Below are positions 1,697-40,994 of a stretch of DNA of 64,000 nt, in pieces. This DNA is from Giardia intestinalis (taxonomy: Eukaryota). The position numbers were made by a program, and so were the translations under genes. The notes under the pieces were generated by a model. That model was not told the origin of the DNA. It ran no database searches and was given only the letters and a program-made list of their open reading frames with translations. Each line of letters starts with the position of its first letter. Positions within the stretch are counted from its first letter, which is position 1. The stretch lies in NCBI GenBank assembly GCA_000002435.2, contig CM018793.1. One strand, 5' to 3'.

Positions 1697-1741
1697 GGCA
1701 CGCATGAAAGAGCTATGATGCACATGCATAAGTTACAGCTG

Positions 1742-8103: not shown

Positions 8104-8121
8104 ATAGATAGAGTCTGGAAG

Positions 8122-10380: not shown

Positions 10381-10406
10381 GAGGACGTCAGTACAAAGCA
10401 GTTAGA

Positions 10407-10413
10407 GTAAATA
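10407..10413 (+). promoter_or_regulatory. Putative polyadenylation signal AGTAAAT (AGTRAAY), 27 nt after the stop of the 752-aa gene.
   Basis: Matches the Giardia poly(A) consensus AGTRAAY, and its position relative to the stop is typical. Confidence 0.4.
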
Positions 10414-10535
10414 ATTAAGGCATTATACTGTGATCTGCAAATGATGTAGGATAGAGGTATAAGTTAGTCACGTCTCTAGCGGTTGACTTACTCCTAAGAG
10501 CCAATCAGCCATATTCTGTTAAGATTTAATTAAAA

Positions 10536-12203: not shown

Positions 12204-12518
12204 ATTACCAAAGCACATTTATGTATCACTAGTTGGCGCTTTTGTATCTTGCTACGACTCAATGGTCTGCACATAGACTTAGGCTAACATAGCGGATTCA
12301 TCCTCGACGCCAGATAGTCTCATTGTGCACGTTCTCCTTTGCTCATAGTATGTACTGCACAAGGCTTTGCGTCAGCTGTGGGTGTCACTCTTCGCTTCTG
12401 AAGCTCGCCCAGCACATAGCGCAGGGTTCAGTGCCGAAGACAGGAGACCGTGGGCCTGAGCAGAGGAGCAAGCGCAGGATGAGACTATCTTTCGGACACT
12501 CCTTACTGCTATTAGCTA

Positions 12519-14684
12519 ATGTTCGAAAAAATTCTCTTCACAAACTGCATATTGCAATTGGCCTGGATAATACAAACAGTAGCTGGGGCATGCACACCGG
12601 GAGAAACTGGTCCAACTAAGTGTAAAACCTGTGACGCTATCATAGGCACAGACAGCTATTGCAGCGAGTGTGACCAGGCGGGCGAAGGACCCATCAATGG
12701 AGTATGTACAAGCGAGCTAAGCGGCAATACTTGCGCTAATAAGATATGCACCCAGTGCGTAAAGAATTACTTCTTATATAAAGGAGGATGCTATAAATTT
12801 GCCGAATCACCGGGAAACATCATATGTGAAGACGCGATAGATGCAGCTGGCGGAACGGACGGAGTGTGTACCACGTGCAAGGCTGCTAACGGCTTCTTCA
12901 AGCATCCCGCCCCTGCAGAAACAAAACAGTCCTGCATTGCTTGTAATGAAACGGCCGGAGTCGTGGACAGTGACACCACGTACAAGGGTACATCCAACTG
13001 CCTGAAGTGTGACCCGCCCGCTGCTGCAATTGGAGCTAGAGCAGATAAAATGGCAGTGTGCACTCTTTGCGATCAGACTAAGTATCTCAAGGAAAGCGCA
13101 TGTGTCGAGAAAGCAGGGTGCGGCGCCAACATGTTTGGTAAGCCAAGTGTACAGGACGGGAATAAATGCATTGCGTGCGGGGATTCAAATGCTGGTATAG
13201 AGGGTTGCGCTGAGTGCACTGCGCCTGATGAACCAACTATTAAACCCACCTGTACAAAATGCACCGGTAACAACTACCTGAAAACCACAAGCGAAGGCAC
13301 GTCGTGCGTACAAAAGGAACAATGTAATGGGGCCTACTTTCCTAATGATAGTGTAGACGGTAAGAAACAGTGCGTTTCGTGTGGCGATGCAACTAATAAA
13401 GGCATAACCGACTGCACTGCATGCAATCTACTCAGCAGTCCGCTAGAAACAGTTCTTATTAAATGCTCTGCCTGCAGAAGTGGGAAGAAGCCTAATGAAG
13501 ATGGATCTGCGTGCGTCGATGCCCCAGGGCCCTCTCCAGAAGAATGCTCGATCGAAGGATGTCAGATATGTTCGGATGACAAAAAGACGTGTGATAAGTG
13601 CCAATCAAACAACTATCTCACTCCAACAAAACTCTGCATATCTGATTGCAAGAAGCTCGGAAACTATTATTTAGCTACCGAGCAAACAACTGGGAGCTGC
13701 AGGGAGTGCGCTATGGTTAATTGCAAAGAGTGTACTGAGAACGGTAAGTGTGGAATATGCAACGATGGCTTTTACCTCCTGAATGAGGAATGTAAGCCAT
13801 GTAATGATAGTTGCAAGACGTGCGAGGGTGGAGTGGAATCTGATAAGTGCACTAGCTGTAAGTCTGGAAGTGCTCTTATTTATGCAGGCAACGGAAATAC
13901 AGGCACATGTAGTCTTGGTTGCATACCCAAATCAAGTGCAGATCCTGGGTCTTGCAAGACATGTGATTTAGCTATTGATGGGACAAAGTATTGCTCAGTG
14001 TGTAATGTGGATAAAGAATACCCTCAAAACGGAGCTTGTGCTGGCATCAAGGCGCGTGCATCCTCATGCCAAGATGGAAATGTTAATAATGGTGTATGTA
14101 GTAAGTGCGAGACAGGGTTCTTCCTTATGAATGGGGGATGTTATGAAATAACCAAGTATCCCGGGAAAACAGTTTGCAGTAAGACAGCGGCTGATGGTAC
14201 ATGTGAGACACCCGCGACCGGCTTTAGTCTAAGTAGCAATACACTCAAAGCTTGCTTTGAAGGTTGTGCTAAGTGTGCTACTGGTGACGATTGTTCTGAA
14301 TGCATCAGCGGCTATGTATCAGGTAGTACCCCTAATAGTTGCGAAAAGTGTAGTACTGGTTGTGCTACATGCTACCCTACTGCCACGACTTGCACATCTT
14401 GTCTTGCTGGATACTATCAATCTGGACCTAAGTGCATTGCCTGTGATAAAGATGATTCTACTATCAAAGGTATTAGTAATTGCTTGAACTGCGCCCCTCC
14501 ATCGTCTGGTAGTGGCTCTGTCCTCTGTTATCTCATGAAAGGTGCCGACAACAACGGCGGGAGCACGAACAAGAGCGGCCTCAGCACAGGCGCCATAGCG
14601 GGGATCTCTGTCGCTGTCATCGTTGTTGTGGGGGGCCTCGTCGGCTTCCTCTGCTGGTGGTTCGTGTGCCGGGGCAAGGCGTGA
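12519..14684 (+). CDS. vsp: Variant-specific surface protein VSP-A (721 aa). It has the signal peptide MFEKILF..., many CXXC motifs, a C-terminal transmembrane helix and the CRGKA tail.
   Basis: An in-frame TAG lies immediately upstream of the ATG. The tail is NKSGLSTGAIAGISVAVIVVVGGLVGFLCWWFVCRGKA*. AGTAAAC sits 8 nt after the stop. Confidence 0.93.
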   Translation: MFEKILFTNCILQLAWIIQTVAGACTPGETGPTKCKTCDAIIGTDSYCSECDQAGEGPINGVCTSELSGNTCANKICTQCVKNYFLYKGGCYKFAESPGNIICEDAIDAAGGTDGVCTTCKAANGFFKHPAPAETKQSCIACNETAGVVDSDTTYKGTSNCLKCDPPAAAIGARADKMAVCTLCDQTKYLKESACVEKAGCGANMFGKPSVQDGNKCIACGDSNAGIEGCAECTAPDEPTIKPTCTKCTGNNYLKTTSEGTSCVQKEQCNGAYFPNDSVDGKKQCVSCGDATNKGITDCTACNLLSSPLETVLIKCSACRSGKKPNEDGSACVDAPGPSPEECSIEGCQICSDDKKTCDKCQSNNYLTPTKLCISDCKKLGNYYLATEQTTGSCRECAMVNCKECTENGKCGICNDGFYLLNEECKPCNDSCKTCEGGVESDKCTSCKSGSALIYAGNGNTGTCSLGCIPKSSADPGSCKTCDLAIDGTKYCSVCNVDKEYPQNGACAGIKARASSCQDGNVNNGVCSKCETGFFLMNGGCYEITKYPGKTVCSKTAADGTCETPATGFSLSSNTLKACFEGCAKCATGDDCSECISGYVSGSTPNSCEKCSTGCATCYPTATTCTSCLAGYYQSGPKCIACDKDDSTIKGISNCLNCAPPSSGSGSVLCYLMKGADNNGGSTNKSGLSTGAIAGISVAVIVVVGGLVGFLCWWFVCRGKA

Positions 14685-14691
14685 CTTAGGT

Positions 14692-14698
14692 AGTAAAC
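14692..14698 (+). promoter_or_regulatory. VSP poly(A) signal AGTAAAC.
   Basis: The conserved VSP 3' flank cttaggtAGTAAACgcatctcctattacatctgct. The same element occurs at 29954-29960 (plus strand), 23448-23454 (minus strand) and 38710-38716 (minus strand). Confidence 0.7.
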
Positions 14699-14913
14699 GC
14701 ATCTCCTATTACATCTGCTCAGCAGCCTTGCGCAGAAGTCCAGGAATGAGTGGCCACGAAGCAGGGTCTCCTGACGTCTCGAGTAAACATACATAGTGCT
14801 CGCTCTGCGTGGAGCATCGAAAGCCCGGCGCGGTGTAGCCACGGCTGCTGGTTGGAGCGGAACGCGTTGGAGCTTTTTGAAAATGGCCCTACCCCGTGCC
14901 GGCCACGCGGCCT

Positions 14914-15534
14914 CTAGACCAGCGAGGCGAGGAGCTTCGTGATCCCCGGGCGCGCGCGGTAGCCATCAAATAGCTCGCGCAGCGGCGGAAACTGGTCCAC
15001 GAGCTCCGGACACTCTGCGTCCGCATAATACAGGACCTCCAGGACCGCGTAGTCCGAGTCGAGCGGCTCGAACGCCAGGCTCCGAAGGTTCAGCACGTCC
15101 CGGGTCAGGACGGTCAGCCCCGGAAGGATCCTGTTCTGTCGGTAGGCCGCGATGCACTCCGAGCGCGTCATCTCTGCCCCAGCGGCAAGGGCCTCTGCCA
15201 CGGCTTTGGGCTCCTTCCAGGCGGCGGCAAGGAGATCCTCACAGAAGAGCACCAGGGCCCGCGCAGCAGCCTGCACCTGCAATGACGTGCTGTACCGCCC
15301 CAGGCTCGCCCCCAGGTACTCCAGGATGACCATGCCCCCGGCCACCCGCGCCGCGCTGTCTTCCCACACGGGGAGCGTGCACGATGGTGCACCCACCTTC
15401 GCCGCGGCCACCTGCTCGGCGCTCGCCAAGGGCGCCCACTCGTACCGTATCTCCAGGTCTGCGAGCAGGAGCCGGCACTTCAACGCGGTGCCCCGGGCGT
15501 CGTAGTACGTGAGTCTCGGCGGAACTACGTCCAT
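14914..15534 (-). CDS. Glutathione-S-transferase-fold protein (about 206 aa). The N-terminal thioredoxin-like domain resembles sigma/pi-class GSTs (RLTYYDARGTALKCRLLLADLEIRYE ... CTLPVWEDSAARVAGGMVILEYLGASLG). A GST-like C-terminus is also present (FPPLRELFDGYRARPGITKLL).
   Basis: Motif-level match to the GST N-domain (YFxxRGRAExIRLLL ... QLPVLExDG...QSxAIxRYLA) and to the C-terminal F-P-x-L-x-x-W/F-x-x-R-x-x-x-R-P-A/G signature. I trimmed the track's TTG start to the ATG at 15534, which has the initiator gaagtaaaATGgac. The gene lies in the GC-rich part of the left arm. Confidence 0.5.
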   Translation of the reverse strand: MDVVPPRLTYYDARGTALKCRLLLADLEIRYEWAPLASAEQVAAAKVGAPSCTLPVWEDSAARVAGGMVILEYLGASLGRYSTSLQVQAAARALVLFCEDLLAAAWKEPKAVAEALAAGAEMTRSECIAAYRQNRILPGLTVLTRDVLNLRSLAFEPLDSDYAVLEVLYYADAECPELVDQFPPLRELFDGYRARPGITKLLASLV

Positions 15535-18500: not shown

Positions 18501-19526
18501 TTTCTGTTTATATTAAACGCCTTCGCTGTACTGGGGTCTCAGTGAGAAGACGAGCACAGATCCAGGCATGCAAGCCTTTAGAGATGCGTACTCCACGCAA
18601 TTCCGGTGTGCTCGCCTGACGAGTCCTACTGCTCTAGCCGGCATACCGTTAGATCCTTCTGTACAGATTGAGCGAGCAGATATTAGCATACGGGTCACGT
18701 TAAGTACCTATGTTCAAGGCAGCTGCTGTTGAACGGGCACACCCAGAGCCACTGTCACGTAAGATGCCAGCAAGATTCGCGGCCGCAGATCACACTGTAA
18801 TCTGGCGACTGATTTGGTCATGTCGCTTCTTTATCGGCTGGAAACTCGACTGGAAGCGACAGAGAGCACGTCGGGAGAACTCGATGGGAGAGGACTGGCA
18901 GGGCTTCCTGCGCCACGGGGGGAGCCACCGCAGGAGGACGCGCAGGCACGCACGCCAGGCCACAGTAGACACGCGGACGCCCCTGTAGACTGGGCCGGCA
19001 GCAGGCGTCCGCAGAATCCGCGCCAGAGCCAGCTGCTCAAAAAACTGGGCAGCCTCTGGTCGTGTGCAGGCCTTGCAGAGCGCTGCGGCTCCCGACACTC
19101 GGCGACCCCTCTCAGAGCGGAAGACCCCGCGGGCCGCAGGCAGCAGCTCGTCGTCGGCGATGTCCCGAACGAGGGGGACGGCCCCAGCCTGCCTGCCTCC
19201 GCAGAGCTCTGGGTGTCTGCAGACAAACCGGGGCTGCGCAGGGCGCGGCTCTCCCTGGCGGCCGAGGGCGGGGATCCCCGGCAATACCAAAAAACTCCGA
19301 TCAATACATCAACCCCGGCGCCGCCGTGTGCAAAGCAGTCTGTTCTGTGTGGCGACCTAAGCCAACTCGTACTGCGGCGATGGCCCGGATGAGGGCGCCC
19401 TGCTCGCCCGACGGACCGGGGCAGGCAGGCAACAAACACCCGCTAAAACTTTTGCGCAAGGCCTGTACATATTTAATTTCACATTATTCGTTGGTCTGTT
19501 TTTAGTTTTATCGCCGCTTCTATTGG

Positions 19527-20117
19527 ATGGGCTCTGGGGCAATGACGGCGGAGACGCGCGCCTCCGTTCTGCTCGAGCTCGCGAAGCAGGTCGTCGCTGC
19601 CCGGCGGCTGGGGGAGACGGCCGAGAGCCTCGCGCGGCGGCCGCTGCTCCTCCACCGGCACGTGCTCCGGACGGCCATCGACTGGAAGAAGATCGCCCGC
19701 GCCCTGTCCGAGGACCGGAGCAGGATCTACCACTGGTACCGCGAGACGCACTCGCGGAGCATCCTCAACGTGAAGATGACCGGCGAGGACCGCAGGGCCA
19801 TCAAGGCGATGATCATCGCCGGGGTCAGGGACCGGAGCATCCTGGGCCCGGACTTCTACCGCAGGGTCCACGAGCGCTTCGGGGCGAAGTATCCGCGCCA
19901 GGAGCTGCGGATGACGTACAACAACGCGCTCCGCACCCAGGACGTCCGCGCCGCCCTGGAGGAGCATGGGGTTCTTCCTGGGCCCGGCACCCTCTCGCTC
20001 CAGACGGGCCAGGATCTTCTCGGGCCGCCCACTTCCTTCGCATGCGTGCCATGCTTCCCCCCTGCGGGCTACGGGGGCGTGCCTGGGTGCGCTGATACAT
20101 ACCCCAGTAAGGGCTGA
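19527..20117 (+). CDS. Low-confidence hypothetical ORF (196 aa) with a possible Myb/SANT-like or HTH segment (TAIDWKKIARALSEDRSRIYHWYRETH). An identical mirror copy lies at 33291..33881 on the minus strand.
   Basis: Starts with ATG. Its amino-acid composition is balanced compared with the Arg/Pro/Gly-rich ORFs around it in the GC-rich block. It shows the W..IA..L....R....W.R.. spacing of helix-turn-helix domains. There is no strong initiator and the region is GC-rich, so chance ORFs are expected. Confidence 0.25.
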   Translation: MGSGAMTAETRASVLLELAKQVVAARRLGETAESLARRPLLLHRHVLRTAIDWKKIARALSEDRSRIYHWYRETHSRSILNVKMTGEDRRAIKAMIIAGVRDRSILGPDFYRRVHERFGAKYPRQELRMTYNNALRTQDVRAALEEHGVLPGPGTLSLQTGQDLLGPPTSFACVPCFPPAGYGGVPGCADTYPSKG

Positions 20118-23100
20118 AGACTGGAGAGCCCGGCTTGCCTGGTGGTCGTCGAGGGGCATCGACGAGTGGTCGGTAGAAACGGCTAATAGTTGAAGTCCTG
20201 GTCAGTGGCGAGACAGTCATTCCTAGAGCGTGTAGCATGCTCGGCCACTTCATAACGCAGGGCCCACCAGACGCAAGCTGTGACGGCCTGGATGTCGCGC
20301 AATCCGTGGCCTGTGCATCGTTGCAGGGGCCATACACAGCAGGTGGAGGCAGGGTTTCCTGTGTGCTCAGACGACTCGACCATCGCAGTTCTGGGTCGAC
20401 GATCCACTAGATATTCCTGTCTAACAACGGGCGGCCGAACGCCCTCTGGGCTGTGAGCTAACACTAACGTGCAGTTGGTCGGCCACCAGATCCATCTTGG
20501 TTAGCCCTCTGCCTACATGCGCCAACACGCCGAGGAGCTACAGGGCAGTCGTTTGCTGTCTTGACAGGTATACTATTGCCTCTATATCTGCACCCTGGAT
20601 GCGGCCACCATAGCACAGTTGCATCTCTGATCATCCTGTGCACACCTTCTGGCACGAGCAGGTGCGCCGGAAGGGATGCACTGCCCACCGCCGAGAAATG
20701 GATGAACTCCCTTACCCAGGAGCCGGCTGACCACTAGCCGTGCCCAGCAAACCCCAATAAGCAGGCCTGCTGAGCCAACCCATCCAAGAAGCTGTGTATC
20801 CGGAAGAGCTTCGCGTCGAATGGCTCCTTGATTAAAGAAGCTGGCATCCAGCGCGACATGACGACTGCTCGCCTGGTGCTGTGCTACCTGCTGGGCGGAA
20901 ACACAGACGCCCTAAGCTCCGTGTGAGCTTGTGCTCAAAGCGTCCTTCACCGGCACGGGATTCCAGGAACTAGGCGTAGATAGGAAGAGCATTCCCCGCT
21001 AGTGCCACGAAGTACCGGTACGCTACCTGGATACACCGATGGCAGCGAAGAGTACGAGAAGGTCCCAGGGCCTCATCGAGCGGGTCTGCTCCTAGCAGGC
21101 CCAAGTGGACGCTCTCTCCAGCAGTGTACAAGAAGCCTGGGAGGGAGTGCTCAGGCTGGAGCTGAGGCGTTGCTGGTACAGGCTGTCCTTACTGAGTGCA
21201 TCCCTCAGCGTCCAATAAGTGGAAAAGTGACCGGAGCTAGGTGTGCCTGCTTCTTCTCTGCCGCCTGCATGTTGTTGCATCTCTAGCTCTTCCTCATTTG
21301 TCGAGCGACTGCTCCTTCTGGCCTCTTGCTGGTCCTCGTTCGTCGTGTAGTCTCTTTTGGAGCTGCTCCCTGGAGGTCGGGCTGACCAGCAACATGGAGG
21401 AGCCTCATTCTTAGCTTCACACTCCACAACTGGCCCAGCGACATGTTGACCATTTTACAAGCAGTTCTGGGTCGCCCAGTCTGGGGCCGGCTGCTGTGCA
21501 TTCTCTGCTTGACTGCCAGGGTCCGCGTCTGGCCCAGACACTAGATGGACAGGAGGCACGGACAAACGCCATTTGCTTGTTGCTTTCATGATCCACGAAG
21601 CTGCTGTCTTTATGTGAGTCTCGACCCAGGTCGGTCTCCGTTGTAGGTGCAACAGTCTTGCGCATGCAATCTGGAGGATCTACGTTAGCGGGTCGAGCCG
21701 AGCAATCCTTGTTAGCGCCTGCCATCCGACGTCTCTGTTGTTGAACTGGCCTGTAGAAGTCCGCTATAGGCCCTCAGGCTCTTTGTCTGTGAGGTTCTGT
21801 GAGGTCCTCTATACCGGTCAGGCCTGTCCGCGTACTCTGTTGATGGGCGAGCTGGTGCATGCAGTCACAGCCCCTGCGCCACCTTCCATTCGGCACTCGG
21901 CGTGTCCACCTGCTTCCGGCCTGCCCTCGCAGAGCACGCTAAGCGCCCACCTATAGCGCATGTCGGTGGAGACTCCTCGGGAGCAATTTGCGGGGGTCTC
22001 GATGAGGTGGCCGACGCCCAGTGAACGACCCCAAGCCACCCTTTAGTGTCTGCGCTGTCGCTCCACGAGAGTGCGTAGTGGGATGCGGCCCGGAGTCCTC
22101 ATGTGCGGGGGCTGACAAGGACTGACAGCCACAGTCAACGGCAGAAAGTTCGGCACCCCGTGTTCCCACGACGTCTCCGATCGCAGTACTGGCGGGGCCT
22201 GACGGCGCTTCTCTTCTTAATTCGGAACGAGTTAAGGAGTTTCCGCCGTAGGATGGCCGAACTGGCGGCCGGCAGGGCTGTGCGATGTGTTAGAGATTGT
22301 TAGAGATTCATACTGTATATTGTGCAGTGGCTAACGTGTATGGGTGTCCCACCGAAGACCCGGCGAAGGATGGCACCGGAGGTGAGACAGGATGACTCCT
22401 GGTGGAGGGGACCACGGTGCTGGCTTGCCTGCAGATGCCGTGGCCAAAATCTCAGCCCGTCCAGGAGTTTAACGGAGGTCATGCGGCCGGACACCGAGGC
22501 CTACCGGAGAGCCGCATCGCCCCTGCACGAGCCAGCAAGCACTGCCTTCGACCCGACCACAGTTGAGAGCGCCCATGTCCGTGGATGCCGTCGGTCAGGT
22601 CCCTGAAGACCACCCTGCTCACAGCCCCAGGGATCCCTCTGCAGACTCTGATTTCTATATCCCTGGGGTAGATGTTTGCGGATAGCGGCACAGGGCTCAG
22701 CAAAACCGCCAGAAGATCCACAGCACACTGTCATTAACTATAAACGTCTTGCGGTATTCATTCCACAATTGAGCCGGTCGTACTGACACAGGAACTGGAG
22801 TCAGGCACTTCTAGGGTGCAACTACAGGACTGTGGAGGAGCTTGCCTTCACACAAAGAAGATCACGTGGACCAGATGTGCCCGGACTGAGAAGCGCCCGC
22901 TTTACCGAGTAATGGTCGCTAATCTATGCACACAGATCATGTTTGGCGGCAAGCTCCCCTGTAGCTCATGCATCACTGTGAATCACTGCCTAGAGGCTTG
23001 TGTTGGAGATGCCGCAAGACACTAATGGCTGACAGGTGTGACTAGCCGTTCTTCCAGTGGTCGTCTCTGGATGCACCGAGTACCTAAGGCGATAGATCAG

Positions 23101-23461
23101 CGCTGCAGGCCTTGACTGTCACGGGCCTTGTGCATAGCTGATCAAATGCCCAACACACTCTGCCCGAGGGTGCCCAAACCCCACGGTGCTGTAGTCGGGC
23201 TGCTAAGGTGCGAGAGGTGGGGCACAGAGGCGCCTATCAGAGCCAAGGATCTATGTGTCACCTGCCTCTGGGTGGAGCAACTACGCCATAGTAGGGGGTG
23301 TTTGTTGCCATACAGAAGTGGGTACGATGAGATACGAAGGCACAGTCCTGCCGCAGAATCCGACGGGTGCTCGGAAACGGGTAACCCGGTAACCTCGTAG
23401 AATAGCAACGTCGAAGCTATAGAGTAAGCAGATGTAATAGGAGATGCGTTTACTACCTAAG

Positions 23462-32900: not shown

Positions 32901-35900
32901 GGGCTAACCAAGATGGATCTGGTGGCCGACCAACTGCACGTTAGTGTTAGCTCACAGCCCAGAGGGCGTTCGGCCGCCCGTTGTTAGACAGGAATATCTA
33001 GTGGATCGTCGACCCAGAACTGCGATGGTCGAGTCGTCTGAGCACACAGGAAACCCTGCCTCCACCTGCTGTGTATGGCCCCTGCAACGATGCACAGGCC
33101 ACGGATTGCGCGACATCCAGGCCGTCACAGCTTGCGTCTGGTGGGCCCTGCGTTATGAAGTGGCCGAGCATGCTACACGCTCTAGGAATGACTGTCTCGC
33201 CACTGACCAGGACTTCAACTATTAGCCGTTTCTACCGACCACTCGTCGATGCCCCTCGACGACCACCAGGCAAGCCGGGCTCTCCAGTCTTCAGCCCTTA
33301 CTGGGGTATGTATCAGCGCACCCAGGCACGCCCCCGTAGCCCGCAGGGGGGAAGCATGGCACGCATGCGAAGGAAGTGGGCGGCCCGAGAAGATCCTGGC
33401 CCGTCTGGAGCGAGAGGGTGCCGGGCCCAGGAAGAACCCCATGCTCCTCCAGGGCGGCGCGGACGTCCTGGGTGCGGAGCGCGTTGTTGTACGTCATCCG
33501 CAGCTCCTGGCGCGGATACTTCGCCCCGAAGCGCTCGTGGACCCTGCGGTAGAAGTCCGGGCCCAGGATGCTCCGGTCCCTGACCCCGGCGATGATCATC
33601 GCCTTGATGGCCCTGCGGTCCTCGCCGGTCATCTTCACGTTGAGGATGCTCCGCGAGTGCGTCTCGCGGTACCAGTGGTAGATCCTGCTCCGGTCCTCGG
33701 ACAGGGCGCGGGCGATCTTCTTCCAGTCGATGGCCGTCCGGAGCACGTGCCGGTGGAGGAGCAGCGGCCGCCGCGCGAGGCTCTCGGCCGTCTCCCCCAG
33801 CCGCCGGGCAGCGACGACCTGCTTCGCGAGCTCGAGCAGAACGGAGGCGCGCGTCTCCGCCGTCATTGCCCCAGAGCCCATCCAATAGAAGCGGCGATAA
33901 AACTAAAAACAGACCAACGAATAATGTGAAATTAAATATGTACAGGCCTTGCGCAAAAGTTTTAGCGGGTGTTTGTTGCCTGCCTGCCCCGGTCCGTCGG
34001 GCGAGCAGGGCGCCCTCATCCGGGCCATCGCCGCAGTACGAGTTGGCTTAGGTCGCCACACAGAACAGACTGCTTTGCACACGGCGGCGCCGGGGTTGAT
34101 GTATTGATCGGAGTTTTTTGGTATTGCCGGGGATCCCCGCCCTCGGCCGCCAGGGAGAGCCGCGCCCTGCGCAGCCCCGGTTTGTCTGCAGACACCCAGA
34201 GCTCTGCGGAGGCAGGCAGGCTGGGGCCGTCCCCCTCGTTCGGGACATCGCCGACGACGAGCTGCTGCCTGCGGCCCGCGGGGTCTTCCGCTCTGAGAGG
34301 GGTCGCCGAGTGTCGGGAGCCGCAGCGCTCTGCAAGGCCTGCACACGACCAGAGGCTGCCCAGTTTTTTGAGCAGCTGGCTCTGGCGCGGATTCTGCGGA
34401 CGCCTGCTGCCGGCCCAGTCTACAGGGGCGTCCGCGTGTCTACTGTGGCCTGGCGTGCGTGCCTGCGCGTCCTCCTGCGGTGGCTCCCCCCGTGGCGCAG
34501 GAAGCCCTGCCAGTCCTCTCCCATCGAGTTCTCCCGACGTGCTCTCTGTCGCTTCCAGTCGAGTTTCCAGCCGATAAAGAAGCGACATGACCAAATCAGT
34601 CGCCAGATTACAGTGTGATCTGCGGCCGCGAATCTTGCTGGCATCTTACGTGACAGTGGCTCTGGGTGTGCCCGTTCAACAGCAGCTGCCTTGAACATAG
34701 GTACTTAACGTGACCCGTATGCTAATATCTGCTCGCTCAATCTGTACAGAAGGATCTAACGGTATGCCGGCTAGAGCAGTAGGACTCGTCAGGCGAGCAC
34801 ACCGGAATTGCGTGGAGTACGCATCTCTAAAGGCTTGCATGCCTGGATCTGTGCTCGTCTTCTCACTGAGACCCCAGTACAGCGAAGGCGTTTAATATAA
34901 ACAGAAAGCCGTGGTGTCACTAGGGTCTATTCGGGCCACTCAGCTATATCGATCATTCCTACCGGTAAAGCCGGACTGCTTACTACTGAGCAGAAGGAAG
35001 CGGCTCCTATGACGGCCAAGCGTGGAATCGGTACGCTGTCAAGCCTCTCGATTCAGATGCAGAGTCTGCAATGTCCACGTGAGTAGCACGCCAAGTGGTT
35101 GCCGCTTGCTTGTTATAGACTATAGATCGGCACGTAGGCTCGCGGGCCGGCTGCATCTTACTCGGAAGTACAAGACGCTGCTCCTGTCTGGATCACAGAT
35201 GCGAATCGCCGGTCCCGATGCGCACGAGTGTTACAGAGTAACAAGGAGAGCACCCGTCTATGGCACACAGTCACAATTCGAGTGGCGTCCAGCCCTCCTG
35301 GAGAAAAGGCATGCCACGATCAACGGCATACTGCTTTGAACACCAGTAAGCACACCCGCTGTGTCTGCGAAGCCGAGGGCGGCCGTATCGCCGGCTGCTA
35401 CTTGTCACTCGGACGCACATGTGTGACGAGACGTGCGGGCGCCCTTCACAAAGGCCTCTTGATGCGCAACACACGGCCCAGCCGCCTCTTCTCTGAGAGA
35501 CAGATGAACTTTGCTTGCAGTGGGCTGCGTTAGCGTAGACTTCTGAACACGTCCCTCTGTTGAGGATTCAGCGGCTACGCACTGGGGGCAGACACGCGTG
35601 TTCTGTGGCCAACACGGGACTTGGCTGAGCAAAGGAGGTAACGAGTCGGCGCTTCTGGCCCGATGCTCTGCGTGCCTGCGCCAGAGACCAGGCTGCCAAT
35701 GTGCCGGTTAAGGAGAAGATGCGATGATCCACCATCGAGGACTGCAGTACCCGCGGAGACGGGCAGGAGCGACTTTTTATGACCACGAGCCTGAGCCCTT
35801 TAAGGTCTGTGCCCGGCTCTTCGCATTACACAGCCCCTCCTCGTGTGTACCCTCAGAGAGCGCGAACATCCTCTTCGACAAGCACTTCTGTGGACACCAC

Positions 35901-37873
35901 AGCAGGAATGCATAGTTCTGCGTTGATCATGCCTTAGCCCTATTGGGGTTGGTGACAAAACTACGACTTCCCTGTCACGAGGCATTACGCTCTGTACAGA
36001 AGAATGCCAGCAAGTCATGCAATGCCTGTGGATCCGTCCTTCGACCTTCTCCTGACAGACATGTGTCTTTTGGCATGCAGCCCTGCATTGCACGACGGTT
36101 CGCCCTCCAAGTGATGGTCTAGAGGACTCAACGCAGTGGCTCCCAAGATATGTGTCCTGAACAGAAGACTATACGATCATATACCTCTAACCACATGAGG
36201 CCACAGCCCACTCTGCTTCTCTATGATGCGCTTAGAACTGTCTCTACGGCTCTCTGTGCTCCATACTATGCGTCTGCTTGTCTTCCACACGCCTATCCCG
36301 GAGTCTGAATTAGGCAAGGCGCACTATATTTGGGGTCACTGCCAACTGCGTTGGCTATTCAGCAAGATATGACTAAAGGCAGCGTCCAGCACGACCGAAC
36401 ATGCTTGAAAGTTACACAGGAGAATGAGTACAGTGCGGGAATGTCCCTCGGTCTACTGGTAAAATGCCGTCGGCTGCTGATACAGGCTCTTGTCTTTGTG
36501 CGGTGACATGCAATCACGTGGTACGCATAGCATCGCTATCTGCATGACGCGAGGCCAGCCAAGTTCTGCCCATCCTACCTCTTATCCTTGCGCGAAGATT
36601 CTGAAAACATAGGATGTCTGGACATGGTGTAGGGCTCTATCGGTAGACCTTCTTTTCTGCACTTCAAGACATGCAGAGGCGGGCGCAGTGTTCCCTAGAC
36701 AGAGGCCTCGGGTATGCACGCTGTTGAGCGACGACTGGAGTTCCTCTGGGGTATCTTACAAAGAGCGGCGCGCTGGCAGGGGCGTCGGTTCGGTGTTCTG
36801 AACAGTGATTAGGGAGCTCCGGCAAGTGAGCGCCTCTCGACTGGCTTGTGTGCCTGCAGCTACACGTGCATGGGCAGCGAGCGGTGCACAAGCCCACGAT
36901 GCTGCGGTTCTACGAATGCCTACTCCTGGTGAGTGCCGTCTGGGGACAAGGGGTGTGTACCGGTACAAACTATCCGGTGTCTCTCTGCACACCAGCCTCA
37001 TAACAATGCTCTACTGGGACTGACTCCGGAGCCAAGTAGGAGAAGAGGCCCTTCTGGGTCTTAATGGCCACGGGCCCCACTACACACCTGGCGGTGCCAC
37101 CCAGAGACCGGATAGCTTTAGAATATTATATAGAAGTTAGCAGACATGTGACTTCGTCTGGTTAGTACGCGCTCTGTGCCGATGCGACTAACGTACACTC
37201 ATCGAAGCATTACCTCGTTTACTCAGAAGTCTTACCGGATACCCAAGGGCTCTCGCTTCCTTCTAGCAGGAGATGAAGCGGCTGCAGAACAGACAGCAGG
37301 GCACCTAGGCCGTGTTGACAAACATGAAGCACAAAATAGCGAGAAGTCCCGTCATGGTAGCATTAGAAACTGCATTAGAGAGGGCGACAAGTATAAGCAC
37401 GATTATACTGGAAAGCACGGCACGCATAACAAGACGTGGATCTTGGCACACAAGAGCGTGGACTTCAAGACCGAACTAGTGAGGAGCTTCTGCAGAGTCC
37501 CGGGCCCCAACAGGTCCTCGAGTGACACAGTGGCTGCGATCACTGCCGACCCTTTTGACCAGCTGTGGGTCGGTCTCTCCGTCTGATGGTTCGTGATATG
37601 ATTTAGAGGGTCCAACTGGAAGATTCCGGACCCTCGAGGTTCAAACGACCCAGGAGGCAAACGACCTCCATAAATCGCGCCAGCCTAGTGTCCACCCCAA
37701 CCCCACCACTATCTATGCAGGTACTAGCAGTTAGCAACGTATAGCAGCTACATGAAGCTGGCGCTCAGATAGTAAACTGAAACCCAAGGATCTCCCCCCG
37801 GGAGAGGTGGCCCGCGTGCCAGGGGTTGCCTCGCACCTTGGCACAGTTGATACGAGCCCACCAGAGAAGTAAA

Positions 37874-38494
37874 ATGGACGTAGTTCCGCCGAGACTCACG
37901 TACTACGACGCCCGGGGCACCGCGTTGAAGTGCCGGCTCCTGCTCGCAGACCTGGAGATACGGTACGAGTGGGCGCCCTTGGCGAGCGCCGAGCAGGTGG
38001 CCGCGGCGAAGGTGGGTGCACCATCGTGCACGCTCCCCGTGTGGGAAGACAGCGCGGCGCGGGTGGCCGGGGGCATGGTCATCCTGGAGTACCTGGGGGC
38101 GAGCCTGGGGCGGTACAGCACGTCATTGCAGGTGCAGGCTGCTGCGCGGGCCCTGGTGCTCTTCTGTGAGGATCTCCTTGCCGCCGCCTGGAAGGAGCCC
38201 GAAGCCGTGGCAGAGGCCCTTGCCGCTGGGGCAGAGATGACGCGCTCGGAGTGCATCGCGGCCTACCGACAGAACAGGATCCTTCCGGGGCTGACCGTCC
38301 TGACCCGGGACGTGCTGAACCTTCGGAGCCTGGCGTTCGAGCCGCTCGACTCGGACTACGCGGTCCTGGAGGTCCTGTATTATGCGGACGCAGAGTGTCC
38401 GGAGCTCGTGGACCAGTTTCCGCCGCTGCGCGAGCTATTTGATGGCTACCGCGCGCGCCCGGGGATCACGAAGCTCCTCGCCTCGCTGGTCTAG
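37874..38494 (+). CDS. Second, mirror copy of the GST-fold ORF in the right arm. It carries one amino-acid difference (K to E), caused by the 15207 mismatch.
   Basis: Reverse-complement duplicate of 14914..15534, differing only at the single mismatch. Confidence 0.5.
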   Translation: MDVVPPRLTYYDARGTALKCRLLLADLEIRYEWAPLASAEQVAAAKVGAPSCTLPVWEDSAARVAGGMVILEYLGASLGRYSTSLQVQAAARALVLFCEDLLAAAWKEPEAVAEALAAGAEMTRSECIAAYRQNRILPGLTVLTRDVLNLRSLAFEPLDSDYAVLEVLYYADAECPELVDQFPPLRELFDGYRARPGITKLLASLV

Positions 38495-38723
38495 AGGCCG
38501 CGTGGCCGGCACGGGGTAGGGCCATTTTCAAAAAGCTCCAACGCGTTCCGCTCCAACCAGCAGCCGTGGCTACACCGCGCCGGGCTTTCGATGCTCCACG
38601 CAGAGCGAGCACTATGTATGTTTACTCGAGACGTCAGGAGACCCTGCTTCGTGGCCACTCATTCCTGGACTTCTGCGCAAGGCTGCTGAGCAGATGTAAT
38701 AGGAGATGCGTTTACTACCTAAG

Positions 38724-40994
38724 TCACGCCTTGCCCCGGCACACGAACCACCAGCAGAGGAAGCCGACGAGGCCTCCGACGACGACGATGACTGCGACGG
38801 AGATGCCCGCGATGGCGCCTGTGCTGAGGCCGCTCTTGTTGACGCTTCCGCCGGTGTTATCGCCGTCTGTTTTGATATAGCAGGTGACAGGGCCACCAGC
38901 GTTACCAGCTGGAGGAGCGCAGCTTACGCAATTAGCGACACCAGTGATTTGGTTGTTATTTCCACTACTAGCTGTACATTTGAAGCATTTATCACCGGCA
39001 CCTTTGTAGTATCCAGGAAGGCATTCAGTGCAGGCATTAGAATCATTGCATTTTGCACAGCCTTCAGAGCACTCCGGACACTTCTCTTGTACAGGTGCCC
39101 GGTTATTTGCAGCACACATAGTACACTTTCCATTATTAGCTGTCGTGCAGACAGCCTTCCCGGGCAGCTTCGCCACACCATAGCACCCGCCCGACATGAG
39201 AGTATACTCTCCTGCACATTTGGTGCACTTCCCGCCTGCCGCCGTACATACGCTCGCGTCTCTCCCAGTTTTCACTGCTGTACAGATCCCGTCGATCGGG
39301 GCGTACCCGTCCTTGCACTGAGCACAGTACTTCGCGCCCCCCACGTTAGCCGTGCACTGCCCGTCTGCACAGTTGGTAATGAACGCACCAGTGCACTCCT
39401 TGACGCATGTTCCGGCTGTGCCAGATCCATACAGGAGAGAGTACCCGGGATAGCAGGCCGTGCAGGAAGCAGCGTCCGCATTGCCGTTGCATTCTGCACA
39501 CGTAGCATGGCAGGAAGCACAGACACTGACTCCGTTAATATTATCGGCATATGTCCCTGCAGGACACTGTTCTAAACATGCATTGCCCGAAGGAGTAAGC
39601 CGCTTGTCTGTACACTCAGAGCACACAACTGTCGATTCTGTTTCTCCAGAGAGCGTTTTGAGGGCACACTTTTTGCAGCCTGTGATGCCGTGTGTCGCGT
39701 CGCTGCATGAGAGGCACATCTTCTTTGAGCCAGTAGAGTCCGCGACCTCCTTGGTGAAGTGCGTCGTATCAGATGTACAGGCAGAGGCCGATACGCACAC
39801 CCCTGAGTGGGCATCAGTATCCGTCACCTTCAGATAGTTGTCTCCGCTGCAGCTAAGGCACTTATCGTCTTCACTCGTATTAGCACCGCTGACGCAATCC
39901 TTGCAACTGGAGTGGCACCCCGGCGTGGCGGCGGGGCATTTCCCGTTCTCTGGTGGTGCGCCGGTACTGCATCTAGCGCAGACATCACTCTGATCACATC
40001 GTTCACAGTTAGAGTCGGGGCAAGCGAAGCACTGCGTACCTGCAGTATTAGGCTTTTGTCCTGCATCGCACTTCTTGCACTCCTTGGCGTTCGGATCGGT
40101 GGTGTCGTCGGCGTAGTAGCCTCCGTCCCTCGTGCAGTCCTCCTTGCTGACGCACGTCCCTGTTTGGTCGCCCGGATTCGTCTTCTTCAGGTAGGGCGTG
40201 GCGCCGCCTGCCTCGCACTTCGTACAAGCCGTCGCTAAACCGCTAGAACACGCCGCGCACGTAGCATCGCACTTCTTGCACTCCTTGGCGTTCGGATCGG
40301 TGGTGTCGTCGGCGTAGTAGCCTCCGTCCCTCGTGCAGTCCTCCTTGCTGACGCACGTCCCTGTTTGGTCGCCCGGATTCGTCTTCTTCAGGTAGGGCGT
40401 GGCGCCGCCTGCCTCGCACTTCGTACAAGCCGTCGCTAAACCGCTAGAACACGCCGCGCACGTAGCATCGCACTTCTTGCACTCCTTGGCGTTCGGATCG
40501 GTGGTGTCGTCGGCGTAGTAGCCTCCGTCCCTCGTGCAGTCCTCCTTGCTGACGCACGTCCCTGTTTGGTCGCCCGGATTCGTCTTCTTCAGGTAGGGCG
40601 TGGCGCCGCCTGCCTCGCACTTCGTACAAGCCGTCGCTAAACCGCTAGAACACGCCGCGCACGTAGCATCGCACTTCTTGCACTCCTTGGCGTTCGGATC
40701 GGTGGTGTCGTCGGCGTAGTAGCCTCCGTCCCTCGTGCAGTCCTCCTTGCTGACGCACGTCCCTGTTTGGTCGCCCGGATTCGTCTTCTTCAGGTAGGGC
40801 GTGTTGCCGTTTGCGTCGCATTTGGTGCATCCTTGTCCAGTTGAGTCACATTCAGCACAACCATCGATCGATGGACTGCATGCATCAGCCAATGCAACTG
40901 CAAAAATCAAACCAATTCCTACCAACATTGAGGCCAGAAGCTGACACAGCACCGCTCTGGTTTGCATTAAGAGGCGCACGGAACCCTGCTTCAT
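38724..40994 (-). CDS. vsp: VSP-C (about 757 aa). Its ectodomain carries 3.7 tandem copies of a 67-aa repeat, and it ends in a transmembrane helix plus the CRGKA tail. The start is uncertain: candidate ATGs are at 40994 (MKQGS...) and 40967 (MQTRAVLCQLLASMLVGIGLIFAVALA, a good signal peptide).
   Basis: Tail ...NKSGLSTGAIAGISVAVIVVVGGLVGFLCWWFVCRGKA*, followed by AGTAAAC on the minus strand. The track start at 41090 is TTG. Confidence 0.88.
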   Translation of the reverse strand: MKQGSVRLLMQTRAVLCQLLASMLVGIGLIFAVALADACSPSIDGCAECDSTGQGCTKCDANGNTPYLKKTNPGDQTGTCVSKEDCTRDGGYYADDTTDPNAKECKKCDATCAACSSGLATACTKCEAGGATPYLKKTNPGDQTGTCVSKEDCTRDGGYYADDTTDPNAKECKKCDATCAACSSGLATACTKCEAGGATPYLKKTNPGDQTGTCVSKEDCTRDGGYYADDTTDPNAKECKKCDATCAACSSGLATACTKCEAGGATPYLKKTNPGDQTGTCVSKEDCTRDGGYYADDTTDPNAKECKKCDAGQKPNTAGTQCFACPDSNCERCDQSDVCARCSTGAPPENGKCPAATPGCHSSCKDCVSGANTSEDDKCLSCSGDNYLKVTDTDAHSGVCVSASACTSDTTHFTKEVADSTGSKKMCLSCSDATHGITGCKKCALKTLSGETESTVVCSECTDKRLTPSGNACLEQCPAGTYADNINGVSVCASCHATCAECNGNADAASCTACYPGYSLLYGSGTAGTCVKECTGAFITNCADGQCTANVGGAKYCAQCKDGYAPIDGICTAVKTGRDASVCTAAGGKCTKCAGEYTLMSGGCYGVAKLPGKAVCTTANNGKCTMCAANNRAPVQEKCPECSEGCAKCNDSNACTECLPGYYKGAGDKCFKCTASSGNNNQITGVANCVSCAPPAGNAGGPVTCYIKTDGDNTGGSVNKSGLSTGAIAGISVAVIVVVGGLVGFLCWWFVCRGKA
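40058..40800 (-). repeat. Perfect in-frame tandem repeat with a 201-bp unit, about 3.7 copies, inside VSP-C. It encodes DGGYYADDTTDPNAKECKKCDATCAACSSGLATACTKCEAGGATPYLKKTNPGDQTGTCVSKEDCTR.
   Basis: Identical 201-bp units start at 40064, 40265, 40466 and 40667. Three small off-frame ORFs (40243, 40444, 40645) repeat with the same period. Confidence 0.9.

What the first reader, a model, noticed from the sequence alone, without database searches (positions are those of the whole stretch)
14636..38772. Near-perfect palindrome of about 24.1 kb: 11.29-kb arms around a 1.56-kb asymmetric spacer
Every ORF in 14.6-25.9 kb has an identical partner on the opposite strand at coordinate 53408-x, so the symmetry axis is 26704. 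By hand alignment, identity stops at 25925 on the left and 27483 on the right (left continues ...gtgcccctg|gtccgg, the right-arm reverse complement continues ...gtgcccctg|acctct). On the outside, identity starts at about 14636 on the left and 38772 on the right. In the stretches I aligned I found three mismatches: left 15207 T against a C-equivalent on the right, 25725 C against G, and 25781 A against G. Identity over the rest of the arms is inferred from the ORF track, so three is a minimum. The structure holds two identical divergent VSP genes, two GST-fold ORFs and two GC-rich blocks of about 8.7 kb. Identical head-to-head VSP pairs are known in Giardia, but a 24-kb palindrome that also duplicates 8.7 kb of non-VSP DNA and ends inside two other VSP genes is far larger than a gene pair. 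Palindromes of this size are classic intermediates or products of gene amplification and fragile-site rearrangement. They can extrude hairpins or cruciforms, and this one would put two copies of one surface antigen under symmetric control.
Basis: seen in the sequence. Interest (0 to 1): 0.88.

Follow-up and report, generated by a model that had tools for sequence, protein, structure and literature searches.

The report
Giardia 24-kb palindrome around VSP pair
The 24-kb near-perfect palindrome is real: it is a much longer version of the identical back-to-back surface-antigen (VSP) gene pairs already catalogued in the Giardia WB reference genome, and each arm also carries a 5S rRNA gene and three other genes.

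Summary
Window 14634-25925 is the reverse complement of 27483-38774. That is 11,292 bp with exactly 3 mismatches, no indels and 99.973% identity, around a unique 1,557-bp spacer.

The window is Giardia intestinalis WB chromosome 5. The central genes are the published head-to-head identical VSP pair GL50803_00137722/137723 (vsp26.1/26.2). For this pair the 3' extent of identity was left undetermined in 2010.

Here the identity runs 8.8 kb past the VSP stop codons, against 139-729 bp of flank identity reported for the other pairs. Besides the VSP, each arm holds:
- two annotated hypothetical genes, one with a Myb/SANT-like fold
- a diverged GST-like paralogue

The outer edges lie inside the conserved 3' tails of two different inward-pointing VSPs. 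The inner edges are abrupt.

The gene and accession order of the 2007 Sanger assembly implies that it independently held the right arm, the spacer and the left VSP. An assembly artefact is therefore unlikely.

Best reading: a genuine inverted segmental duplication, probably seeded by VSP-tail homology and probably kept uniform by arm-to-arm gene conversion. All three mismatches lie within 573 bp of an arm edge (P~0.001). Nothing supports an amplification-intermediate or fragile-site origin. I rate it a new variant of a known kind, of modest interest.

The parts
12519..14684 (+). Left flanking VSP ('VSP-A', KAE8304970 / XP_001705450, 721 aa). It points into the palindrome, and its last 51 nt lie inside the left arm.
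   Evidence: Pfam VSP match, E 5e-149. Exact-sequence look-up.
14634..25925 (.). Left arm of the palindrome (11,292 bp)
   Evidence: reverse complement of 27483-38774 with 3 mismatches and no indels.
14547..14719 (+). A 173-bp VSP 3' tail plus 3' UTR. It is 100% identical to the tails of both arm VSPs (23427-23599 and 29809-29981) and 91-92% identical to the VSP-B tail (38689-38864). Together these make a nested inverted repeat that brackets the 8.7-kb block in each arm.
   Evidence: Self-BLAST.
14914..15534 (-). GST-like paralogue, left copy (KAE8304971, 206 aa). It carries the one coding difference between the arms (K110, against E in the right copy).
   Evidence: Pfam GST_N_2. Cluster look-up. 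Alignment. Translation check.
18820..19392 (+). Hypothetical gene GL50803_0060223 (190 aa, KAE8304972 or KAE8304977). The mirror copy is at 34016-34588 (-).
   Evidence: Exact look-up. The two copies translate identically.
19527..20117 (+). Hypothetical gene GL50803_00113864 (196 aa, KAE8304973 or KAE8304976) with a Myb/SANT-like helical N-terminal domain. The mirror copy is at 33291-33881 (-).
22145..22264 (-). 5S rRNA gene, left copy
   Evidence: Rfam RF00001, 88.3 bits, full length. Identical to the right copy.
23462..25426 (-). Arm VSP, left copy (probably GL50803_00137722, vsp26). It is 654 aa from the Inr-type ATG (CAATGTT) at 25426. The annotation gives 661 aa from 25447, and the 2007 annotation gave 715 aa from 25609.
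   Evidence: Pfam VSP. P0001 is 100% identical. Candidate start sites. Start-codon correction in bioRxiv 10.1101/2022.03.07.483299.
25926..27482 (.). Unique asymmetric spacer (1,557 bp, 60.7% GC). No gene is annotated here in the current annotation.
   Evidence: The ORF at 26840-27373 has no Pfam hit and is not in the protein collection.
27483..38774 (.). Right arm of the palindrome (11,292 bp)
27982..29946 (+). Arm VSP, right copy (probably GL50803_00137723)
   Evidence: Translates identically to the left copy. Xu 2020 Table 2 lists the pair as '<- ->', 661 aa, 2513 bp apart, which equals the distance between ATG 25447 and ATG 27961.
31144..31263 (+). 5S rRNA gene, right copy
   Evidence: Rfam RF00001, 88.3 bits.
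37874..38494 (+). GST-like paralogue, right copy (KAE8304978). It keeps the ancestral E110.
38724..40928 (-). Right flanking VSP ('VSP-B' = vsp25 / A6-S2, GL50803_37093). It points into the palindrome, and its last 51 nt lie inside the right arm. It carries 3.7 copies of a 201-bp tandem repeat at 40063-40803.
   Evidence: Pfam VSP. Tandem Repeats Finder. Adam 2010 supplement. The ATG at 40928 is my choice, based on a signal-peptide-like start.

Best explanation
This is a genuine large inverted segmental duplication (palindrome) on chromosome 5 of Giardia intestinalis WB. It is the catalogued head-to-head identical VSP pair GL50803_00137722/137723. Its arm identity does not stop a few hundred bp past the ORF. 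It continues 8.8 kb beyond the VSP stop codon to the 3' tail of the next, inward-pointing VSP on each side. The gene order is VSP-A -> | <-GST, 60223->, 113864->, <-5S, <-VSP | spacer | mirror image | <- VSP-B.

Formation (inferred). A single inverted-duplication event produced the structure. One junction formed by homologous invasion between the conserved, oppositely oriented 3' tails of VSP-A and VSP-B. The other junction, at one inner arm/spacer boundary, formed without homology. This resembles break-induced replication or template switching. The sequence between the template segment and the break was left as the 1.56-kb spacer.

Maintenance (inferred, about 0.6). The arms are kept at 99.97% identity by arm-to-arm gene conversion, which is less effective near arm edges.

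Consequences. Five genes are present at double dose: one VSP with identical promoter and 3' end, a GST-like paralogue, two hypothetical genes, and 2 of the roughly 10 genomic 5S rRNA genes. The long inverted homology should also be a substrate for spacer inversion.
For: Locus identity. The arm VSP is 100% identical to a WB VSP on the 4,018,654-bp contig. The pair distance of 2513 bp and the size of 661 aa match Xu 2020 Table 2. The distance of 2189 bp from the old start codon matches vsp26 in Adam 2010 (2190 bp), whose 3' divergence is given as '-'. The supplement names vsp26.1 as 137723 and vsp26.2 as 137722.

It is real rather than an artefact.
- Both flanks are unique.
- The left flank 546-12207 is collinear with P15 at 87.7% identity and is followed by a VSP there as well.
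- In the 2007 Sanger assembly vsp25 (A6-S2 = VSP-B), vsp26.1 and vsp26.2 are consecutive.
- The old accessions XP_001709460-469 run block ORFs, VSP, one ORF, VSP. So an independent technology had VSP-B, the right arm, the spacer and the left VSP.

Junction anatomy.
- The outer edges lie 51 nt inside the conserved tails of two otherwise unrelated VSPs.
- The inner edges are abrupt.
- The spacer is unique and has no residual symmetry.

Evidence for gene conversion.
- All three mismatches lie within 573 bp of an arm edge, and 10,517 bp in the interior are identical (P~0.001 under uniform placement).
- The two arm GST copies share 7 derived residues against the third WB paralogue and against orthologues from sub-assemblage AII (isolate DH), assemblage E (P15) and an assemblage-B-like isolate. 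They differ from each other at only one residue.
- The paralogous 1.79-kb GST segment on other contigs is only 94.5% identical to the arms.
- In the literature, inverted VSP pairs are either identical or unrelated, with no intermediates, and no identical VSPs exist outside inverted pairs (Adam 2010). G. muris also has 7 identical inverted pairs (PMC7641422).
- Arm divergence of 0.027% is about the genome-wide allelic heterozygosity of 0.03% (Xu 2020 Table 1).
Against: I had no reads, so the outer 9 kb of the left arm and its join to VSP-A rest on the PacBio assembly alone.

Consensus polishing with ambiguously mapped reads could erase true arm differences deep inside the arms and keep those near unique anchors. 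That would mimic the edge clustering I attribute to gene conversion.

A very recent duplication explains 3 differences equally well. The shared derived GST substitutions could have accumulated in a single copy before the palindrome formed.

GC enrichment is not specific to the arms. The spacer is also 60.7% GC, and the arm VSP is only 49% GC. So there is no clean signature of GC-biased conversion.

Which arm is the copy, and the break-induced replication model itself, cannot be established from one genome.

One published report says the gapped 5' part of WB chr5 was mis-assembled (PMC11169602). The window has no gaps, but I do not know its position on chr5.
Confidence: 0.72

Rival explanations
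1. The duplication is very young and is not maintained. The inverted duplication happened so recently in the WB / sub-assemblage AI lineage that only three substitutions have accumulated. No gene conversion acts between the arms.
For: There are only 3 differences in 11.3 kb. Adam 2010 favoured 'relatively recent' duplications for the identical pairs. No VSP more than 59% identical to the arm VSP was found in any other isolate in the protein search. That is consistent with a lineage-restricted, young locus. The arm VSP is not GC-enriched.
Against: All 3 differences lie at arm edges (P~0.001). Inverted VSP pairs in WB are either identical or unrelated, with no intermediates, and the same pattern recurs in G. 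muris. That is hard to explain by many independent very recent events. The arm GST copies are clearly older than the arm-to-arm divergence suggests: 7 shared derived residues and 5.5% nucleotide divergence from the paralogous segment.
Confidence: 0.3
2. The structure is an assembly or polishing artefact. Either one arm is a mis-placed copy (a collapsed or expanded repeat, or a hairpin-read chimera), or the arms are truly more divergent and were made uniform by consensus polishing.
For: The full structure is seen only in one long-read assembly. Xu 2020 notes that about 20 kb may be the largest duplication the reads could resolve. A different part of WB chr5 has been reported as mis-assembled. 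Edge-clustered mismatches are what polishing with multi-mapping reads would leave behind.
Against: There is a unique 1.56-kb asymmetric spacer, and the two outer flanks are unique and different. The Sanger-era assembly already contained VSP-B, the block ORFs, VSP, spacer and VSP in that order, with the same 2190-bp spacing. The two GST copies were annotated as distinct proteins that differ at one residue. A missing-adapter chimera would give a spacer-less perfect palindrome at a contig end, not this.
Confidence: 0.05
3. It is a functional RNA-hairpin or co-regulation unit. The palindrome exists because transcription across the spacer yields long hairpin dsRNA that feeds the Dicer/RdRP pathway implicated in VSP silencing, or because the divergent identical promoters couple the expression of the two VSP copies.
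For: Both VSP copies share 499 bp of identical upstream sequence and identical 3' ends. Giardia has bidirectional promoters and pervasive overlapping and antisense transcription (PMC3610916). Identical inverted VSP pairs recur in two Giardia species.
Against: No transcript or small-RNA data were examined. Most VSPs (about 100 of about 136) are not in pairs yet are regulated in the same way. The arms include 8.8 kb of non-VSP DNA that such a function does not need. Tail-to-tail pairs outnumber head-to-head pairs, which argues against a promoter-sharing rationale.
Confidence: 0.07

Closest known systems
Identical inverted VSP gene pairs of Giardia intestinalis WB (Adam et al. 2010, PMC2996952; Xu et al. 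2020, PMC7000408) and of G. muris (PMC7641422)
   Same: It has two identical VSP ORFs in head-to-head orientation, a non-coding interval of 2-4 kb between the ORFs, and upstream identity that ends abruptly a few hundred bp from the ATG (499 bp here). This very pair is listed in both WB catalogues.
   Different: Across the described pairs, identity ends 139-729 bp from the coding region. Here the 3' side continues for 8,828 bp. It takes in a GST-like gene, two hypothetical genes and a 5S rRNA gene, and it ends only inside the tails of the next VSPs. The arms are 11.3 kb rather than roughly 2.5-3 kb.
Large gene-conversion-maintained palindromes of primate sex chromosomes (human Y P1-P8).
   Same: The arms are over 9 kb, arm-to-arm identity is about 99.97%, the spacer is unique and non-palindromic, and genes are present as mirror-image pairs. 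The proposed role is intrachromosomal gene conversion in a genome with little or no meiotic recombination.
   Different: The scale differs (11 kb against up to 1.45 Mb). Conversion has not been demonstrated here by cross-lineage comparison. The organism is tetraploid, so homologous templates also exist.
Inverted-repeat-mediated inverted duplications formed by break-induced replication or template switching, such as human DUP-TRP/INV-DUP rearrangements. This comparison rests on my own knowledge.
   Same: One junction lies in pre-existing inverted homologous repeats (here the conserved VSP 3' tails). The other junction has no homology. A unique segment is left between the inverted copies.
   Different: The mechanism is inferred from the end-product only. 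There is no triplicated segment. I could not determine which arm is the derived one.
Plastid-genome inverted repeats. This comparison rests on my own knowledge.
   Same: There are two long, near-identical inverted copies that carry an rRNA gene and are separated by a single-copy region. Copy correction keeps the arms identical, and flip-flop inversion of the single-copy region is expected.
   Different: This is a nuclear linear chromosome. The spacer is short. Isomers have not been shown.

Membership tests
Giardia identical inverted VSP pair | Two VSP ORFs with identical coding sequence in inverted orientation | tested here: met
   The 654-aa translations are identical and both end in CRGKA. 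Pfam VSP match.
Giardia identical inverted VSP pair | ORFs separated by about 2-4 kb of DNA without annotated genes | tested here: met
   The ATG-to-ATG distance is 2189, 2513 or 2555 bp, depending on which start codon is used. This matches the published 2190 bp and 2513 bp.
Giardia identical inverted VSP pair | Flank identity ends abruptly within about 139-729 bp of the coding region on both sides | tested here: not met
   The 5' side is met (499 bp). On the 3' side identity runs 8,828 bp beyond the stop codon. Adam 2010 Table 5 gives '-' for the 3' divergence of vsp26.
Giardia identical inverted VSP pair | Listed as a pair in the WB catalogues | tested here: met
   vsp26.1/26.2 are flagged HHIPa/HHIPb. 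The pair 137722/137723 is in Xu Table 2.
Conversion-maintained large palindrome (sex-chromosome type) | Arms of many kb with at least 99.9% identity around a unique spacer | tested here: met
   Arms of 11,292 bp at 99.973% identity, with a unique 1,557-bp spacer.
Conversion-maintained large palindrome (sex-chromosome type) | Arm-to-arm divergence far below the divergence of the same arms between lineages (concerted evolution) | not testable with these tools
   No other assemblage-A long-read genome could be fetched. There are only indirect hints: mismatch clustering at arm edges and shared derived GST residues.
Palindromic amplification intermediate (breakage-fusion-bridge or hairpin-capped break) | Little or no spacer, loss of distal sequence or a terminal position, and often more than 2 copies | tested here: not met
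   The spacer is 1,557 bp and unique. There are unique gene-bearing flanks on both sides of the window. There are exactly two copies in the window. The left flank is syntenic with P15.
Long-read hairpin or chimera assembly artefact | A perfect spacer-less palindrome at a contig end with no independent support | tested here: not met
   The structure is internal and has an asymmetric spacer and 3 mismatches. The gene order of the Sanger-era assembly covers the spacer and one full arm.

The most novel reading that the evidence does not exclude
Giardia's inverted VSP palindromes are actively self-correcting units. Arm-to-arm gene conversion operates over at least 11 kb. It keeps a VSP, a 5S rRNA gene and neighbouring genes error-free in an essentially asexual polyploid, much like the sex-chromosome palindromes of primates. 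Read-through transcription across the short unique spacer additionally yields long hairpin RNA that enters the Dicer pathway controlling VSP expression.
Probability: 0.12. Interest if true: 0.7.

Novelty: new variant of a known kind. Interest (0 to 1): 0.36.

Why it matters
The identical inverted VSP pairs of Giardia were called 'an interesting, but cryptic observation' by the authors who catalogued them. They were described as gene-sized duplications with short identical flanks.

This locus shows that the same architecture can span 24 kb. It can carry non-VSP genes and a Pol III gene, and it ends precisely in the conserved tails of neighbouring VSPs. That points to VSP 3' tails as the recombination substrates that build and bound these structures. 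It also gives a long enough arm to test for gene conversion, through edge-biased differences and comparison between isolates.

There are practical consequences too. Two of the roughly ten 5S rRNA genes and five protein genes here are invisible to unique-read mapping. The locus is also an obvious place for short-read assemblies to break: the P15 and metagenome contigs examined here end just upstream of the GST-like gene, and the P15 Dus contig ends 430 bp after its VSP.

Tried and rejected
1. Fetching the WB contig or other assemblage-A long-read assemblies by exact protein look-up. The arm VSP (three start codons), the arm GST, P0001, P0121 and P0126 were all 'not on record'. I could therefore not compare the palindrome between isolates.

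2. The closest VSP in P15 (59% identity) sits in an unrelated context, between a helicase and VPS13. It is not a positional orthologue.

3. The GST-like orthologues in P15 and in an assemblage-B-like isolate lie next to a 1273/1400-aa gene, a CPSF-like gene and mTOR. None of these is in the window. The arm GSTs are therefore a transposed paralogue, not the ancestral locus.

4. The idea that the 8.7-kb block is rDNA, a tRNA cluster or a recognisable mobile element. Rfam finds only the 5S gene, there are no tRNAs, and no stop-to-stop ORF exceeds 244 aa. There are no Pfam hits for the annotated ORFs. I did not run Pfam on all 52 short frames.

5. The 134-aa ORF at 15822-16226 is labelled 'tRNA-dihydrouridine synthase 3, partial' in isolate DH. 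It has no similarity to the Dus gene on the left flank, so this is an annotation artefact and not a link between the arm and the flank.

6. Residual palindromic symmetry in the spacer: none.

7. GC-biased gene conversion as the cause of the GC-rich arms: not supported cleanly. The spacer is equally GC-rich, the arm VSP is not, and polarised GST substitutions are mostly S->W (strong G/C to weak A/T) on both lineages.

8. An exact-match scan of JGI metagenome contigs for the inner-junction sequence returned no hits.

Full report
OBSERVATION

A BLAST of the window against itself gives one dominant inverted match, 14477-25925 against 38934-27483 (99.65% identity). The repeat finder reports the same pair. 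A base-by-base global alignment separates this into two parts.
- The core, 14634-25925 against 38774-27483, is 11,292 bp with no indels and exactly three mismatches: 15207 T/C, 25725 C/G and 25781 A/G.
- An outer 157 bp has roughly 80% identity.

The spacer 25926-27482 (1,557 bp, 60.7% GC) matches nothing else in the window. It has no residual inverted symmetry, with a local score of 14.5 against 14.5 +/- 3.2 for shuffles. The whole structure spans 14634-38774, which is 24,141 bp.

WHAT THE LOCUS IS

Three ORFs are Giardia VSPs by Pfam and end in CRGKA. The arm VSP is 100% identical to a VSP of G. intestinalis WB on a 4,018,654-bp contig, which is chromosome 5 of the PacBio reference.

Xu et al. 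2020 (PMC7000408, Table 2) list on chr5 the pair 137722/137723, oriented '<- ->', 661 aa, 2513 bp apart. The ATGs at 25447 and 27961 are 2513 bp apart and give 661 aa. Adam et al. 2010 (PMC2996952) list head-to-head pair vsp26 with 2190 bp between ORFs, and '-' (undetermined) for the 3' divergence point. The old start codons at 25609 and 27799 are 2189 bp apart. The supplement equates vsp26.1/26.2 with GL50803_137723/137722, flagged HHIPa/HHIPb. A later preprint argues that the true start is the next Met, which carries the VSP initiator motif. That is the CAATGTT at 25426, giving 654 aa.

So the central gene pair is already known. Neither catalogue describes how far the identity runs. For the other pairs, Adam et al. 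report identity ending 139-729 bp from the coding region. Here the 5' side ends 499 bp above the ATG. The 3' side continues 8,828 bp beyond the stop codon.

CONTENT OF EACH ARM

Exact-sequence look-ups and the consecutive GenBank protein accessions KAE8304970-978 give the annotated order:
- VSP-A (970)
- left arm: GST-like (971), GL50803_0060223 (972), GL50803_00113864 (973), VSP (974)
- spacer
- right arm: VSP (975), d113864 (976), d60223 (977), GST-like (978)
- then VSP-B

The 'd' tags show that the annotators recognised these genes as duplicates.

Rfam adds a full-length 5S rRNA gene in each arm, at 22145-22264 (-) and 31144-31263 (+), scoring 88 bits. WB has only about 10 5S genes (Xu Table 1; see also PMC3369914). 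There are no tRNAs. The rest of the 8.7-kb block has no long ORFs.

All paired genes translate identically except the GST-like gene. The left copy has K110 and the right copy has the ancestral E110, which is the mismatch at 15207.

EDGES

The left outer edge (14634) lies 51 nt before the stop codon of VSP-A (12519-14684, + strand). The right outer edge (38774) lies 51 nt before the stop codon of VSP-B (38724-40928, - strand). VSP-B is vsp25/A6-S2 and carries a 201-bp tandem repeat. The two flanking VSPs are unrelated apart from the family-wide conserved tail. Both point inward.

The VSP-A tail plus 35 nt of 3' UTR (14547-14719) is also 100% identical to the tails of both arm VSPs. Each arm's 8.7-kb block is therefore bracketed by inverted VSP tails. 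The overall gene order is A-> <-X X'-> <-B.

IS IT REAL?

I could not examine reads. Four points argue against an artefact.
- The spacer is asymmetric and unique, and the two flanks differ.
- The left flank (546-12207) is collinear with a P15 (assemblage E) contig at 87.7% identity. It is followed there too by a VSP, 430 bp after which the contig ends.
- In the 2007 Sanger assembly, vsp genes were numbered by contig and position. vsp25 (VSP-B), vsp26.1 and vsp26.2 are consecutive.
- The old accessions XP_001709460-465 (ORFs in the block), 467 (VSP), 468 and 469 (VSP) run in the order of the window.

An independent technology therefore had VSP-B, one complete arm, the spacer and the second VSP before its contig stopped. 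That fits Adam et al.'s remark that such pairs 'prematurely terminated the contigs'. The join of the left arm's outer 9 kb to VSP-A rests on the PacBio assembly only.

A different, gapped part of WB chr5 has been reported as mis-assembled (PMC11169602). The window has no gaps.

HISTORY OF THE ARMS

WB has a third GST-like gene on the 1.54-Mb chromosome (KAE8302024). The two arm copies share seven derived residues against that paralogue and against orthologues from sub-assemblage AII (isolate DH), assemblage E (P15) and an assemblage-B-like isolate. These changes fall at otherwise invariant sites.

Assemblage-A-like metagenome contigs carrying the non-arm type share only a 1,788-bp segment with the arms (window 14837-16620) at 94.5% identity. 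They also keep a 79%-similar remnant of a VSP 3' UTR, but no VSP.

In P15 and in an assemblage-B-like isolate, the GST gene lies beside mTOR-region genes that are absent from the window. The arm GSTs are thus an older, transposed paralogue. Even so, they differ from each other at a single base.

MECHANISM

The following points are shown:
- The outer edges lie in conserved inverted VSP tails.
- The inner edges are abrupt and lack homology.
- The spacer is unique.
- All three mismatches lie within 573 bp of an arm edge, and 10,517 bp in the interior are identical. The probability under uniform placement is about 0.001.
- Arm divergence is 0.027%, similar to the genome's allelic heterozygosity of 0.03%.

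Two things are inferred.

(a) Formation by one inverted-duplication event. A broken end carrying one VSP tail invaded the oppositely oriented tail of the other flanking VSP. It copied 11.3 kb and was sealed without homology at one arm/spacer boundary. The intervening unique DNA was left as the spacer. This mirrors inverted-repeat-mediated template-switch duplications known from other organisms (my own knowledge). I cannot tell which arm is the copy.

(b) Maintenance by arm-to-arm gene conversion, which I put at about 0.6. This is supported by three lines of evidence:
- the edge-biased mismatches
- the concerted GST substitutions
- the published pattern that inverted VSP pairs are either identical or unrelated, that no identical VSPs occur outside inverted pairs, and that G. 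muris also has seven identical inverted pairs

Adam et al. themselves proposed only recent duplication and did not mention conversion.

There are caveats. Polishing with multi-mapping reads would also leave differences only near unique anchors. A very young duplication cannot be excluded. GC enrichment is regional rather than specific to the arms: the spacer is 60.7% GC and the arm VSP is 49% GC.

WHAT IT IS NOT

Nothing suggests an amplification intermediate or an unstable fragile site. There are two copies only, gene-bearing unique flanks on both sides, and the same spacing in assemblies made more than a decade apart. From my own knowledge, a 1.56-kb spacer should strongly disfavour cruciform or hairpin extrusion.

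A role in producing hairpin RNA for VSP silencing is conceivable, given pervasive overlapping transcription in Giardia. It is untested, and the 8.8 kb of non-VSP DNA would not be needed for it.

VERDICT

The object is a real, unusually long member of the known class of identical inverted VSP pairs, and the pair itself is already catalogued. Its 11.3-kb arms, 5S rRNA content and VSP-tail boundaries are, as far as I could find in four searches of the paper library on VSP pairs, palindromes and gene conversion, not described. [quoted passage not shown] I rate it a new variant of a known kind, of modest interest. Its main value is as the best available substrate for testing whether gene conversion maintains these palindromes.

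Noticed in passing
window 22145-22264 (-) and 31144-31263 (+): Each arm holds a full-length 5S rRNA gene (88 bits), and the two copies are identical. WB is reported to have only about 8-10 5S genes, so about a fifth of them sit in this palindrome and cannot be told apart by unique-read mapping.
   Followed up: partly
[not shown]
   Followed up: partly
window 14914-15534 and 37874-38494; L002 1439-2083; L003 174-818: The GST-like gene has GC3 (GC at third codon positions) of 85% in assemblage A and 94% in P15, but only 37% in the assemblage-B-like orthologue. In P15 the GC content falls from about 70% to about 40% at about the 3' end of the gene (300-bp windows). This is a very local, lineage-specific composition shift of unknown cause. 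GL50803_00113864 also has GC3 of 89%.
   Followed up: partly
L002 (P15 contig ACVC01000177.1) 1-133 against 1373-1505: The P15 contig begins with a 98.5% reverse-complement copy of the 5' end of its own GST-like gene, 1.24 kb upstream. This is the signature of a head-to-head inverted GST pair at the mTOR-linked locus in assemblage E. It suggests that this gene has been caught in inverted duplications more than once.
   Followed up: no
window 40063-40803 (within VSP-B, 38724-40928, - strand): There is a 201-bp tandem repeat of 3.7 perfect copies. The gene is vsp25/A6-S2 (GL50803_37093), which the 2010 table lists with 2 repeats. So either the Sanger assembly collapsed the array or the copy number changed.
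   Followed up: no
window 12519-14684 (VSP-A): VSP-A falls in the same 90%-identity cluster as a 721-aa VSP of P15 (EFO62295). That is unusually high conservation for a VSP between assemblages A and E. That P15 gene is on a different contig from the P15 Dus-linked VSP.
   Followed up: no
L004 1-2236 and L005 1287-3522 against window 14686-16620: The non-arm GST paralogue on assemblage-A-like metagenome contigs shares 1,788 bp at 94.5% identity with the arms. It also keeps a 79%-similar VSP 3' UTR remnant that ends exactly where the VSP stop codon would be, but it has no VSP tail. The ancestral GST segment was probably already tail-to-tail with a VSP.
   Followed up: partly
protein P0138 (Logan contig, 1,657 bp): This GST-like protein is a mosaic of arm-type and non-arm-type diagnostic residues. 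It is either a short-read assembly chimera between paralogues or evidence of gene conversion between them in another sample.
   Followed up: no
window 15822-16226 (-) and mirror copy: This 134-aa ORF upstream of the GST gene is at least 90% identical to two DH proteins named 'tRNA-dihydrouridine synthase 3, partial'. It has no similarity to the real Dus gene at 10536-12203, so the name looks like an annotation error. One DH copy is on an 87.8-kb contig that I could not fetch.
   Followed up: partly
window 21417-21725 (-): This old-annotation ORF (GL50803_97698), close to the 5S gene, clusters at 90% or more with GL50803_116394, which occurs twice elsewhere in the 2007 WB proteome. Part of the 5S-flanking DNA may therefore be a dispersed repeat.
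   Followed up: no
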